NCBI RefSeq assembly: GCF_003334815.1 | Contig: NZ_QOWO01000016.1 | Direction: 5' to 3' (one strand) | Source of the DNA: Escherichia coli | GTDB lineage: Bacteria; Pseudomonadota; Gammaproteobacteria; Enterobacterales; Enterobacteriaceae | DNA: 64,000 bases | In this document: in pieces, positions 12,815 to 14,007 of the stretch | Layout: each line of letters begins with the position of its first letter | How positions within the stretch are numbered: the first letter of the stretch is position 1 | Made by a program: the position numbers and the translations under genes | The notes under the pieces: generated by a model | What the model was told of the DNA's origin: nothing | Seen by the model: the letters and a program-made list of their open reading frames with translations, nothing else | Databases searched by the model: none

Positions 12815-13069
12815 ATGGGTAAGATTATTCGGTGGATGCTTTTTTTTGTCGGATTATTTTCCGTTGCATATTCAATATATAAATATCAACAATCTCCGCA
12901 GAGTTTATTTTACATAATCGGTGCTATAGGAACACTTTTATCTGCTACATGTGGTTTACTTGAGATAAAAAGCAAGAAATCGAATGGCAGTATAACTGCT
13001 GGCGACAACTCAAATATCGTTGTCATTAATGGTTCAGAAAACACATCAAAAATAAAAAATAGAGGGTGA
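12815..13069 (+). CDS. small membrane protein, two predicted TM helices, hydrophilic Asn/Ser-rich C-terminal tail; unknown function
   Basis: 84-aa ORF, GAGGT upstream of ATG; hydrophobic stretches WMLFFVGLFSVAYSIY and LFYIIGAIGTLLSATCGLL; AT-rich codons. Confidence 0.5.
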   Translation: MGKIIRWMLFFVGLFSVAYSIYKYQQSPQSLFYIIGAIGTLLSATCGLLEIKSKKSNGSITAGDNSNIVVINGSENTSKIKNRG

Positions 13070-13071
13070 TT

Positions 13072-14007
13072 ATGTTTGATAAAGAGGTTAACTTAGGAGA
13101 CAACTCAAACGTAGTAAAAACAGAAGGGAATAACAACACAACAATAATAAATAATTTTGATGAGAAGTTTATAGGTCACGTTGTAAGATCCATGCTTTAT
13201 GAAAGTATGCCTTCCTTTCAAGAAGAAGCTAGAAAAAAGATAATTGCGTCAACTGATGAATACATTAGAGAGCTAATATCTGAGTTAGTAATTCAAAAAA
13301 CAGATGCAGATACATTAAACCAAAAACTATCAACGCCTGACGTTCAATACTCTCTTTTTGAATCAGCTAAATGTTTTGCAAAAAATCCAGAAAGAACAGC
13401 AAAATCAACTCTGTTAAATTTAGTTGTAAAAAAAATAAATGAATTGGATGGAGATCATGAAGAGCTTTCCTCTATCGATCTGGCAATAAACGTCGCTACA
13501 AAACTTAGCGTAAAGCAAATAAGGTATATATCTTTAATATACTATATTAAAGATATTGTAAAAATATCACAAGATAGTGCCGGCGCTTATTGCATAATAG
13601 ATCCTTCAAAAGATACAACAGAAGAAGTTGACGATTTCTTTTTATTCCCAAATGATATAAAAAGGAACAAGCAGGATGTTTATGATCTTTATATCGATCT
13701 ATATAACAATCAAATGGATGTTGTATTTAAAGATGAAGAGATTGGCCCAGTTGATTATAGTATGCTTATAGCATTGGGTTGTATCATTCAACCTGCATTC
13801 CCTCAGCGAACATTTGTACAAAATGTAAAGAAAAGAACAGGATTAGATTTAAACGACAGCGAACAAAAATTAAAGCTATCGACATTCATTGAGAAAATAG
13901 AAAAAGCTATAGAGATAGATTCTGTCGATTATATAGTATTAACTACGGTTGGTAGACAAATAGCTAACGCCTATATATCAACAAGAATGAGATTAGTTAA
14001 CTTATAA
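13072..14007 (+). CDS. hypothetical protein (~311 aa), no assignable motif; candidate effector of cargo cassette
   Basis: ATG 13072 preceded by GAGGG and 2 nt after the upstream stop (translational coupling); ORF track gives GTG 13066; AT-rich, Lys/Ile/Asn/Asp-rich. Confidence 0.55.
   Translation: MFDKEVNLGDNSNVVKTEGNNNTTIINNFDEKFIGHVVRSMLYESMPSFQEEARKKIIASTDEYIRELISELVIQKTDADTLNQKLSTPDVQYSLFESAKCFAKNPERTAKSTLLNLVVKKINELDGDHEELSSIDLAINVATKLSVKQIRYISLIYYIKDIVKISQDSAGAYCIIDPSKDTTEEVDDFFLFPNDIKRNKQDVYDLYIDLYNNQMDVVFKDEEIGPVDYSMLIALGCIIQPAFPQRTFVQNVKKRTGLDLNDSEQKLKLSTFIEKIEKAIEIDSVDYIVLTTVGRQIANAYISTRMRLVNL

What the first reader, a model, noticed from the sequence alone, without database searches (positions are those of the whole stretch)
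13001..13190. Diverged ~95-bp tandem duplication bridging the two cassette ORFs; both proteins share a GDNSN[IV]V...N..T motif
Seen: the C-terminal tail of the small protein (...AGDNSNIVVINGSENTSKIKN) and the N-terminus of the large protein (...LGDNSNVVKTEGNNNTTIINN) are about 50% identical over ~20 residues. The underlying DNA (ggcgacaactcaaa at 13001, ggagacaactcaaa at 13096) repeats with a 95-bp period, not a multiple of 3, which matches the frame change between the two ORFs. Inference: either an ancestral single membrane-anchored protein was split by a tandem duplication, or the shared peptide is a functional repeat. Deleting one repeat unit would restore a single ~370-aa open frame.
Basis: seen in the sequence. 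Interest (0 to 1): 0.5.

Follow-up and report, generated by a model that had tools for sequence, protein, structure and literature searches.

The report
Shared end-motif couples two prophage proteins
The "repeat" is not a recent DNA duplication but an old, co-evolving ~20-residue peptide found at the tail of a small membrane protein and at the head of its uncharacterised neighbour in every related locus examined, the layout known from amyloid-signalling cell-death and anti-phage gene pairs.

Summary
The sequence facts are confirmed. GGCGACAACTCAAA (13001) and GGAGACAACTCAAA (13096) lie 95 nt apart. The peptides match at 11 of 21 residues, far above composition-matched shuffles. It is not a DNA tandem repeat: TRF finds nothing, and similarity sits at codon positions 1 and 2, not 3.

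The two ORFs are a tightly coupled operon in the low-GC cargo slot of a prophage, just after its pin invertase. One encodes an 84-aa two-helix membrane protein. The other encodes a 311-aa LPO_1073/Vpar_1526 family protein.

In 14 further loci (19-90% identity), a small collinear membrane ORF precedes the Vpar_1526 gene. Its C-terminal tail mirrors the partner's N-terminus, and the motif co-varies within pairs.

Rare relatives carry the membrane segment fused to the domain. Others carry a Cap5-type HNH nuclease in that position.

Best reading: a prophage-borne, probably abortive-infection module. A Vpar_1526 sensor is coupled to a small membrane effector through a homotypic beta-prone motif, as in Bab/Agp and BASS pairs.

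Amyloid templating itself is untested. The module has no PADLOC model and no paper in the library searched.

The parts
12772..12801 (+). promoter-like site (TTAACA-18-CATAAT) just upstream of the small gene
   Evidence: 10/12 match. Such sites are not enriched over shuffles, so this is only a candidate.
12815..13069 (+). gene for an 84-aa small membrane protein, preceded by the ribosome-binding site AGAGG
   Evidence: There is no PADLOC or Pfam family, only weak PHROG and NCBIfam matches.
12818..12970 (+). two hydrophobic helices (residues 2-26 and 31-52) forming a membrane hairpin. K/R-rich segments on both flanks suggest that both ends face the cytoplasm.
   Evidence: AF2 model of the concatenated pair and hydropathy. 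The topology is inferred from the positive-inside rule.
12992..13060 (+). C-terminal motif of the small protein, residues 60-82: ITAGDNSNIVVINGSENTSKIKN
   Evidence: pLDDT is below 50 with a short strand at residues 69-71.
13072..14007 (+). gene for a 311-aa LPO_1073/Vpar_1526 family protein. Its start lies 2 nt after the stop of the small gene, with the ribosome-binding site GAGGGTGA inside the small gene's end.
   Evidence: NF045477 85.9 bits against a cut-off of 45. PF28206 is recorded on all its homologues. The E. coli annotation is.
13087..13155 (+). N-terminal motif of the large protein, residues 6-28: VNLGDNSNVVKTEGNNNTTIINN. It lies upstream of the region covered by the family model.
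   Evidence: It is disordered in AF2 (pLDDT below 50 for residues 1-24). The NCBIfam model starts after it.
13159..13995 (+). globular Vpar_1526 domain (residues 30-308): mostly helical with a small beta region at residues 164-199. No solved structural relative was found.
14029..14066 (+). terminator hairpin (10-bp stem, 14029-14057) followed by UUCUUUUCU. It ends the two-gene operon.
   Evidence: -15.8 kcal/mol, z = -4.07, 0 of 200 shuffles reach it. The consensus scan missed it because the loop is 9 nt.

Best explanation
The finding marks the junction of a conserved two-gene module carried as cargo by a prophage.

Gene 1 encodes a small inner-membrane protein with one or two helices and a cytoplasmic C-terminal tail of about 20 residues. 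Gene 2 is translationally coupled to it. It encodes a cytoplasmic LPO_1073/Vpar_1526 protein whose disordered N-terminus carries the same motif. The core is G-[DN]-x-S-x-x-[IV]-x-x-x-G-[ND]-x-x-[IVT]; it is rich in N, G, T, S, I and V and has almost no proline.

The motif is a homotypic coupling element that links the two proteins. I think the most likely mechanism has four steps:
1. The Vpar_1526 domain senses an infection-related cue and self-associates.
2. Its N-terminal motifs assemble into an ordered beta-sheet (cross-beta or beta-solenoid-like).
3. This sheet recruits or templates the identical tails of the membrane protein.
4. The membrane hairpins cluster, membrane integrity is lost, and infection aborts.

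Shown:
- the motif is shared;
- it is conserved and co-evolves within pairs;
- the gene pairing and tight coupling hold across the family;
- the cassette sits in a prophage cargo slot;
- relatives have a defence-type HNH nuclease fused in the effector position.

Inferred:
- the defence role (about 0.6);
- direct motif-to-motif binding (about 0.75);
- amyloid-like templating rather than a simple stable beta-zipper (about 0.35);
- membrane damage as the output (about 0.5).
For: 1. The motif similarity is far above chance.

2. In all 14 other loci with upstream sequence, a collinear ORF of 54-106 aa encoding a 1- or 2-helix membrane protein precedes the Vpar_1526 gene. The gap ranges from -14 to +14 nt, and the ORF ends in the partner's motif. 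The loci are L003, L004, L005, L009 (partial), L010, L011, L013-L017 and L019-L021.

3. The motif co-varies within pairs. Examples are IQAGND in both partners of L015, TINSGRDT in both of L009, and NKQSQK.G in both of L019. Over 13 pairs, within-pair identity is 9.1/19 against 6.2/19 for other partners (permutation p = 2e-5). Over 15 pairs (14 valid), the own-partner Smith-Waterman score is 50.5 against 33.2, and 0 of 200000 permutations reach it. The L009 row was translated in the wrong frame, which makes that test conservative.

4. Composition: Q+N+G+V+I make up 53-56% of the motif and proline is nearly absent. This matches the bias reported for BASS motifs (10.1101/2020.01.06.895854).

5. 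AF2 gives a confident globular domain but a disordered motif in both proteins. That is expected for a segment that folds only on assembly.

6. Context:
- The cassette is a 31% GC island between the pin serine invertase and the dinI-like gene at the prophage end next to prfC.
- Only 4 of 5426 E. coli genomes carry it.
- Related prophages hold a DUF4145 gene in the same slot.
- L019 lies next to a phage holin and amidase, and L013-L018 are IMG/VR viral contigs.

7. Effector swapping: P0053 and P0080 carry, N-terminal to a motif-like linker and the Vpar_1526 domain, an HNH nuclease domain. It matches the PADLOC models PDC-M68A (5e-26 to 8e-31), SduA and SAVED-HNH, and the Cap5 structures.

8. Precedent: E. 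coli Bab/Agp is a prophage-hotspot abortive-infection pair. In it a small membrane-targeting protein and a large sensor share a 20-residue amyloid motif at their C- and N-termini (10.1101/2024.11.07.622273).
Against: - No experiment bears on this family.
- No PADLOC model matches either protein, so the defence role rests on context and on the HNH fusions.
- The sensor is not an NLR or a TPR-GreAB-PIN protein. The effector is a constitutive membrane hairpin, not a Bell/HeLo-type soluble helical bundle. The activation logic of known amyloid signalling therefore does not transfer directly.
- Fused relatives keep the motif as a linker between the membrane or HNH part and the domain. This fits a structural or oligomerisation element as well as it fits a templating signal.
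- AF2 gives only low-confidence 3-residue strands in the motifs.
- The distal part of the small-protein tails is K-rich (12% K), unlike BASS motifs.
- A strict motif HMM recognises only 31 of 89 family representatives. The rest have diverged N/Q/G-rich N-termini that were judged by eye.
Confidence: 0.55

Rival explanations
1. Constitutive docking, with no templating. The two motifs form an ordinary intermolecular beta-sheet or beta-zipper that permanently tethers the Vpar_1526 protein to the membrane through the small protein. The motif would be an anchor, not a signal. Regulation, if any, would happen inside the Vpar_1526 domain.
For: Distant relatives have the membrane segment covalently fused, with one or two motif copies kept as a linker (P0056, P0065, P0043, P0105). 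This shows that permanent tethering is compatible with function. Co-variation within pairs is expected for any specific interface. AF2 places short strands at equivalent positions of both motifs.
Against: AF2 does not predict a confident heterodimeric interface even with a paired alignment (pLDDT below 50 over residues 52-113). The N/G/Q/V/I-rich, proline-free composition and the C-end/N-end layout on adjacent genes match the signature used to define amyloid signalling motifs. The HNH fusions show that the position is an effector slot rather than just a membrane anchor.
Confidence: 0.3
2. Phage lysis-timing or other phage-benefit module rather than host defence. The small membrane protein would act like a holin or antiholin, with the Vpar_1526 protein as its regulator.
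For: L019 lies immediately upstream of a holin and amidase lysis cassette. The fold search gives weak links to proteins annotated DUF4393. The founding member of that family, Abi-alpha, causes premature lysis (PMC6356687). The small protein has a holin-like size and topology.
Against: In the window and in E. coli E600003 the cassette is in the variable cargo slot after the tail-fibre invertase, not in the lysis region. It is absent from nearly all related prophages, so it is not a core phage function. Relatives in Pantoea lie on large non-mobilizable plasmids, outside prophages. HNH-fused relatives point to a nuclease effector, which makes no sense for lysis timing.
Confidence: 0.1
3. One reading: a recent ~95-bp tandem duplication split one membrane-anchored gene into two. 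On this view the second motif copy is a by-product without a function of its own.
For: Removing 13001-13095 restores a single frame. A fused 404-aa homologue exists (P0011).
Against: TRF finds no repeat. Third codon positions match at only 9/21. The split state with both motifs is conserved in 14 other loci down to about 19-24% identity. The gap and frame relation differ between loci. P0011 keeps both copies and is one A-run nucleotide away from the split state.
Confidence: 0.03
4. Chance resemblance of two low-complexity N/S/T-rich segments.
For: Both segments are compositionally biased, and the region is AT-rich.
Against: None of 5000 composition-matched shuffles reaches the observed score. 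The resemblance recurs in every homologous locus with pair-specific variants.
Confidence: 0.01

Closest known systems
Bab/Agp abortive-infection pair of E. coli ECOR25 (BASS11 amyloid motif), bioRxiv 10.1101/2024.11.07.622273
   Same: Both are adjacent collinear genes in prophage cargo or defence hotspots of E. coli. In both, a small protein of about 100 aa with an N-terminal hydrophobic part carries a motif of about 20 residues at its C-terminus, and a larger partner carries the same motif at its N-terminus. In both, the motif is disordered in monomer predictions and rich in G and N.
   Different: [quoted passage not shown] The small protein is a two-helix membrane hairpin with no detectable Bell-type or 'MEPIS' N-terminus. 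The motif sequence could not be compared with BASS11, because that sequence is not in the held text. No fibril, prion or phage data exist for this family.
Bell/NLR gene pairs with BASS1-10 motifs (Dyrka et al. 2020, 10.1101/2020.01.06.895854) and fungal HET-S/NWD2
   Same: The defining genomic signature is the same: a motif common to the C-terminus of an effector and the N-terminus of a receptor, encoded by collinear genes less than 10 bp apart or overlapping. Both show enrichment of N, G, V, I (and Q) with depletion of P and L. In both, 'all-in-one' relatives exist in which an effector domain is fused directly to the receptor.
   Different: Those receptors are NB-ARC/NACHT NLRs, and the pairs were reported to be restricted to multicellular bacteria (Actinobacteria, Cyanobacteria). 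Here the receptor is not an NTPase. The hosts are Enterobacterales (Escherichia, Citrobacter, Providencia, Pantoea) and Commensalibacter. The wider fold family spans many phyla, though pairing was not checked there.
CBASS effectors with swapped output domains (Cap5 HNH-SAVED versus membrane-spanning effectors)
   Same: One regulatory domain is combined either with an HNH nuclease or with a small membrane-spanning effector. The HNH domain of P0053/P0080 is homologous to that of Cap5.
   Different: There is no cyclase, no SAVED domain and no nucleotide signal. Coupling to the membrane effector is through a shared peptide on a separate polypeptide.
Abi-alpha (DUF4393, PF14337) of Enterococcus faecalis prophage 6, PMC6356687
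   Same: It is a prophage-encoded, helical protein of about 270-310 aa. Foldseek matches two AFDB proteins annotated DUF4393 at E 2.5e-9 and 3e-7.
   Different: There is no sequence match to PF14337 for the window protein or for any of 80 family members. Abi-alpha was reported to act as a single gene. No partner or shared motif is described for it.

Membership tests
LPO_1073/Vpar_1526 family (NCBIfam NF045477; Pfam PF28206) | whole-protein score above the curated cut-off of the family model | tested here: met
   85.9 bits against a cut-off of 45, E 3.3e-24. PF28206 is recorded for all homologues. RefSeq annotates the 98.7%-identical E. coli copy with this name.
Amyloid signalling gene pairs (BASS/FASS type) | a short motif (about 15-25 aa) shared by the C-terminus of one protein and the N-terminus of the protein encoded by the adjacent collinear gene | tested here: met
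   23-residue local alignment with score 60, reached by 0 of 5000 shuffles. The genes are 2 nt apart.
Amyloid signalling gene pairs (BASS/FASS type) | [quoted passage not shown] 2020) | tested here: met
   15 pairs including the window, spanning 19-90% identity of the large protein. They co-vary within pairs.
Amyloid signalling gene pairs (BASS/FASS type) | composition enriched in Q, N, G, V, I and depleted in K, P, L | tested here: inconclusive
   QNGVI make up 53-56%, there are 0-2 prolines in about 250 residues, and L is about 2%. However, K is 12% in the small-protein tails, concentrated at their distal end.
Amyloid signalling gene pairs (BASS/FASS type) | the receptor is an oligomerising sensor of a known class (NB-ARC/NACHT NLR, or the TPR-GreAB-PIN protein of Bab/Agp) | tested here: not met
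   The large protein has no Pfam domain other than Vpar_1526, no NTPase motif, and no PDB relative.
Amyloid signalling gene pairs (BASS/FASS type) | the effector is a Bell/HeLo-type helical domain or a known enzymatic death domain | tested here: not met
   The small protein is a two-helix membrane hairpin with no PADLOC, Pfam or NCBIfam family. No direct comparison with a Bell domain was possible.
Amyloid signalling gene pairs (BASS/FASS type) | the motif forms cross-beta fibrils, behaves as a prion-forming domain, and the receptor-side motif converts the effector-side motif | not testable with these tools
   This needs peptides with ThT, Congo red, EM and ssNMR, plus GFP-foci assays. AF2 monomer runs only show disorder with 3-residue strands.
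Amyloid signalling gene pairs (BASS/FASS type) | sequence membership in one of the described motif families BASS1-11 | not tested
   The motif profiles and sequences are in figures and supplements that are not held.
Abi-alpha / DUF4393 (PF14337) | match to the Pfam model | tested here: not met
   No Pfam-A match even at E <= 10 for the window protein, and none among 80 family members. The only link is fold-level hits to two AFDB entries annotated DUF4393.
Tandem DNA duplication | head-to-tail DNA copies whose similarity extends over the whole unit and is not confined to constrained codon positions | tested here: not met
   TRF finds none. Only a 14-mer passes repeat finder. Third codon positions match at 9/21.
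Known anti-phage defence systems (PADLOC-DB 2.0) | match of either protein to a system or candidate-system model | tested here: not met
   No families at E <= 1 for either protein. Only the HNH domain of fused relatives matches defence effector models.

The most novel reading that the evidence does not exclude
Vpar_1526/LPO_1073 proteins and their small membrane partners form a widespread, undescribed class of anti-phage cell-death systems. In them the signal passes from sensor to membrane effector by prion-like templating of a 20-residue motif. This would make amyloid signalling a general and modular coupling device in bacterial immunity: new sensor, new effector, at least Enterobacterales and Commensalibacter among hosts (the fold family is far wider but its pairing is unchecked), and not restricted to NLRs or multicellular bacteria.
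Probability: 0.3. Interest if true: 0.85.

Novelty: new variant of a known kind. Interest (0 to 1): 0.66.

Why it matters
Amyloid-type signal transfer between adjacent gene products has so far one experimentally shown bacterial case (Bab/Agp). Otherwise it rests on predicted NLR/Bell pairs in filamentous bacteria.

This module has the same genomic signature but a different sensor and a much simpler effector. The protein family is named only after locus tags and has no PADLOC model. The fold family spans many phyla, although partner pairing was checked only in the sampled loci.

If the motif works as proposed, three things follow. The mechanism generalises. It provides a minimal, easily engineered system of 84 aa plus 311 aa, with naturally diverged motif 'specificities' for swap experiments. 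It also gives a first functional handle on an uncharacterised family.

Even if the coupling turns out to be plain docking, two results stand. Every Vpar_1526 gene sampled has an often unannotated small membrane partner. HNH-fused variants also exist, which defines a new candidate defence module.

Tried and rejected
- Tandem-repeat and direct-repeat searches at the DNA level found only the 14-mer.
- Programmed -1 frameshifting between the two ORFs was rejected. The large gene's frame has a TAG at 13060-13062, upstream of its start, which leaves no room for a slip site (by inspection).
- PADLOC, Pfam and PHROGs gave no informative family for either protein.
- A genome-contig scan with the close-subfamily alignment found no confirmed locus. 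The broad alignment was too diverse to search with.
- tblastn against phage records found nothing. Against plasmids it found two Pantoea records, one of them a 5'-truncated remnant.
- AF2 of the concatenated pair with a paired 14-row alignment did not give a confident interface.
- The 'fused' homologue P0011 was checked as possible support for the gene-split model. It was found to be a single A-run nucleotide away from the two-gene form.
- A literature search for LPO_1073/Vpar_1526 returned only an unrelated Veillonella proteome paper. Searches for further amyloid-signalling defence systems returned nothing on this family.
- No supplementary files are held for the Bab/Agp preprint, so BASS11 could not be aligned to this motif.
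Full report
**What is at the coordinates**

The window holds two same-strand ORFs.
- The first is 12815-13069. It encodes an 84-aa protein ending ...SITAGDNSNIVVINGSENTSKIKNRG.
- The second starts at ATG 13072, two nucleotides after the first ORF's stop, and ends at 14007. It encodes a 311-aa protein beginning MFDKEVNLGDNSNVVKTEGNNNTTIINN.
- The DNA words GGCGACAACTCAAA (13001) and GGAGACAACTCAAA (13096) are the only direct repeat with 95-nt spacing that the repeat finder reports (D8).
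- Tandem Repeats Finder reports nothing.

**Is the likeness more than chance, and at what level?**

- It scores 60 in BLOSUM62, against 28 +/- 4.4 for 2000 shuffles; none reach it.
- None of 5000 shuffles reach it when only the compositionally biased tail and N-terminus are shuffled.
- At the DNA level the 63-nt motif-coding blocks match at 39/63 at offset 95. The next best offset in the region gives 30/63.
- By codon position the matches are 14/21, 16/21 and 9/21.

The resemblance is therefore real but maintained on the peptide. The intervening sequence is not repeated. It is not a recent DNA duplication.

**What the two genes are**

The large protein belongs to the LPO_1073/Vpar_1526 family (NF045477, 85.9 bits against a cut-off of 45; PF28206 on all homologues).
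- It has no other Pfam, PADLOC or informative PHROG match.
- AF2 with an 80-sequence alignment gives a confident, mostly helical globular domain for residues 30-308 (pLDDT 86.6, pTM 0.80). The motif-bearing residues 1-24 have pLDDT below 50.
- In AFDB50 the fold recurs in uncharacterised proteins from many phyla. Two are annotated DUF4393 and one DUF2806.

The small protein has two hydrophobic helices, residues 2-26 and 31-52.
- K/R-rich segments lie before the first helix and after the second. By the positive-inside rule (inference) the tail is cytoplasmic, which is where the signal-less large protein must be.

A promoter-like site lies at 12772-12801. A strong hairpin followed by a U-tract at 14029-14066 closes the operon.

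**Genomic setting**

The cassette is a 30-34% GC island in flanks of 47-55% GC.
- It sits between the pin-type serine invertase of an invertible tail-fibre segment (11866-12456) and the prophage end next to prfC (16287 onward). It is followed in this window by a CapH/CapP-like regulator pair and a dinI-like gene.
- E. coli E600003 has the same cassette (98.7% identity) directly between pinE and dinI, next to prfC.
- Only 4 of 5426 complete E. coli genomes carry it.
- Related prophages have a DUF4145 gene in the same pin-dinI slot.

This is a variable cargo slot. Serine recombinases have been proposed as markers of adjacent defence genes (PMC12632615), which is weak contextual support.

**The key comparative result**

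The word-indexed search found 17 homologue clusters, and the exhaustive representative search found 89. I retrieved DNA for every homologue I could. Each entry below gives the tail of the small protein, then the N-terminus of the large protein.

| Locus | Tail of small protein | N-terminus of large protein |
|---|---|---|
| L003 | TGDNSSVVNISGNKNK | AGDNSNVVSTKGDGNV |
| L004 | SGENSTNIIVNGNKNK | SGDNSNIVNTKGDGNV |
| L005 | AGNNAKIVHVQGNHNK | AGDESNVVHTDGNNNT |
| L009 (upstream ORF partial) | QSSGNQSKTINSGRDTKITV | QSSGDNSNTINSGRDTTVTV |
| L010 | QKVGNHSSGIQVNGNLTI | QKVGDNSIAVQVDGNLSL |
| L011 (Pantoea plasmid; small ORF not in the PLSDB gene table) | GGKNSTNIIINGNQNE | SGDNSNTVNTKGDGNI |
| L015 (one of the IMG/VR contigs L013-L017) | QKIGDGGFGIQAGNDINI | QKVGDGSTAIQAGNDVVI |
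| L019 | NKQSQKLGNQSTGIQVGGDISI | NKQSQKVGDNSTSIQAGGNVKI |
| L021 | IKQNVKGNGNQT | IKQNIKGDGNTT |

L020 follows the same pattern.

- In all 14 loci a collinear ORF of 54-106 aa, encoding one or two membrane helices, precedes the Vpar_1526 gene. The gap ranges from -14 to +14 nt.
- Each such ORF ends in a copy of its partner's N-terminal motif.
- The frame relation and spacing differ between loci. The 95-nt period is therefore incidental.

**Co-variation**

- Over 13 pairs and 19 ungapped positions, a tail matches its own partner at 9.1 positions and other partners at 6.2 (permutation p = 2e-5).
- Using unsupervised local alignment scores over 15 pairs, the own-partner mean is 50.5 against 33.2, and 0 of 200000 permutations reach it. 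The L009 tail was translated in the wrong frame in that run, which only weakens the result.
- The matrix has a block structure. Clade-specific variants (VV.T.GNNN, TINSGRDT, IQ..GN.) appear in both partners.
- Independent divergence of two unrelated segments would not produce this. It needs either selection for matching or repeated homogenisation.
- The number of independent concerted changes is small (about 4-5). The permutation p-value overstates the independence of the pairs.

**Fused forms**

- P0011 (404 aa, L002) is a fusion that keeps both motifs. Inserting one A into the run at L002 positions 320-325 restores an 83-aa small protein ending ...VNGTKNKTRVGK*, which fits the family tail consensus, with the large gene's ATG just downstream. 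It rests on one 1.6-kb contig, so it may be a mutation or an assembly error.
- Among distant representatives, P0105 has a membrane helix, two motif copies and the domain. P0056, P0065 and P0043 have membrane segments fused upstream of a motif-like linker.
- P0053 and P0080 carry, in the same N-terminal position, an HNH nuclease domain. It matches PADLOC defence-effector models (PDC-M68A 5e-26 and 8e-31, SduA, SAVED-HNH) and the Cap5 structures. A motif-like N/Q/G-rich linker follows, then a full Vpar_1526 domain (NF045477, 1e-67 and 1.5e-55).

The N-terminus of the Vpar_1526 domain is therefore an effector slot. It is filled either covalently (membrane segment or HNH) or by a separate membrane protein that carries a copy of the motif.

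**How general is the motif in the family?**

The alignment of 29 diverse members has the consensus M.D...Q..GDNS......GD.....G ahead of the first helix. A strict HMM built from 28 motif instances recognises 31 of 89 representatives, 30 of them within the first 25 residues. Most others have a visibly related but diverged N/Q/G/T-rich N-terminus. That last point is judged by eye.

**Comparison with what is known**

The layout matches the criterion by which amyloid signalling motifs were discovered: the same short motif at the C-end of a small membrane-targeting protein and at the N-end of the adjacent gene's product, with tiny or negative intergenic distance.
- For BASS1-10 in bacterial Bell/NLR pairs, the reported composition is Q/N/G/V/I-rich and P/L-poor, and 'all-in-one' fused relatives exist (10.1101/2020.01.06.895854).
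- A functional bacterial case exists. Bab/Agp of E. coli ECOR25 lies in prophage hotspots and aborts T5 infection. There the sensor's N-terminal BASS11 converts the motif on the 109-aa Bab (10.1101/2024.11.07.622273).
- Here the motif is 53-56% Q+N+G+V+I with almost no proline, and it is disordered in monomer models.

The differences are substantial.
- The sensor is neither an NLR nor a TPR-GreAB-PIN protein.
- The effector is a constitutive membrane hairpin rather than a latent helical bundle.
- The tails end in a K-rich stretch.
- Nothing is known experimentally.

I therefore do not file it as a member of any BASS family. I say it has the same architecture and probably works in a similar way. 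A plain, stable beta-zipper dock is the main rival.

**Verdict**

- The 'functional repeat' alternative is right and leads well beyond the coordinates. It points to a family-wide two-gene module: a small membrane protein plus a Vpar_1526 protein joined by a co-evolving terminal motif, with HNH- and membrane-fused variants.
- The module has no PADLOC model and no paper in the held library.
- The defence role and the templating mechanism are inferences that can be tested directly with the experiments listed.

Noticed in passing
window 14411-14770 and 14779-15300 (+): An XRE-type HTH protein and an ImmA/IrrE-type metallopeptidase lie directly downstream of the cassette. They match PADLOC capH (3.6e-10) and capP (4.9e-11), the DNA-damage-responsive regulator pair of CBASS and other defence operons. 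The pair is absent from the otherwise identical E. coli E600003 locus. Whether it regulates the cassette is unknown.
   Followed up: partly
window 9652-12456: This is an invertible tail-fibre segment. Tail-fibre C-terminal and assembly genes lie in both orientations (9652-10780 on +, 10752-11875 on -), next to a Pin/Gin-type serine invertase (11866-12456). The prophage has Mu-like baseplate genes in the E. coli homologue.
   Followed up: partly
L022 (E. coli PEC301) 4403-6278; also H33-H35: In related prophages, here integrated at dusA, the slot between the invertase and the dinI-like gene holds a DUF4145 gene instead of the cassette. The pin-dinI interval is therefore a cargo-exchange hotspot.
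   Followed up: partly
P0053, P0080 (representative proteins, no locus fetched): These are Vpar_1526 proteins with an N-terminal Cap5/Shedu-type HNH nuclease domain, in single-polypeptide 'all-in-one' form. Their gene neighbourhoods were not examined.
   Followed up: partly
L011 3747-4001 (Pantoea sp. X85 plasmid NZ_CP121109.1): The 84-aa partner ORF is missing from the PLSDB gene table for this record, although the large gene is listed. That table is incomplete, so absence from the original record is not shown. Small partners of this family may still be under-annotated in general.
   Followed up: no
L018 2501-3405 and L012 2143-2826: These are decayed copies. In L018 the large gene is broken into three ORFs while the small gene is intact. 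In L012 (Pantoea vagans plasmid) the large gene has lost its 5' end, its motif and the small gene.
   Followed up: no
L019 2146-3974: A distant member of the module sits immediately upstream of a phage holin (PF05105) and an amidase endolysin. It is therefore carried in or beside a lysis cassette of a phage.
   Followed up: no
L009 1-30: The contig begins with (AGAAGG)n, directly abutting the partial small ORF. This is probably an assembly-end artefact, and it cuts off the upstream gene.
   Followed up: no
window 13528-13556: A perfect 14-nt inverted repeat (ATATCTTTAATATA / TATATTAAAGATAT, 1 nt apart) lies inside the large gene (I8). In this AT-rich coding sequence it may be chance.
   Followed up: no
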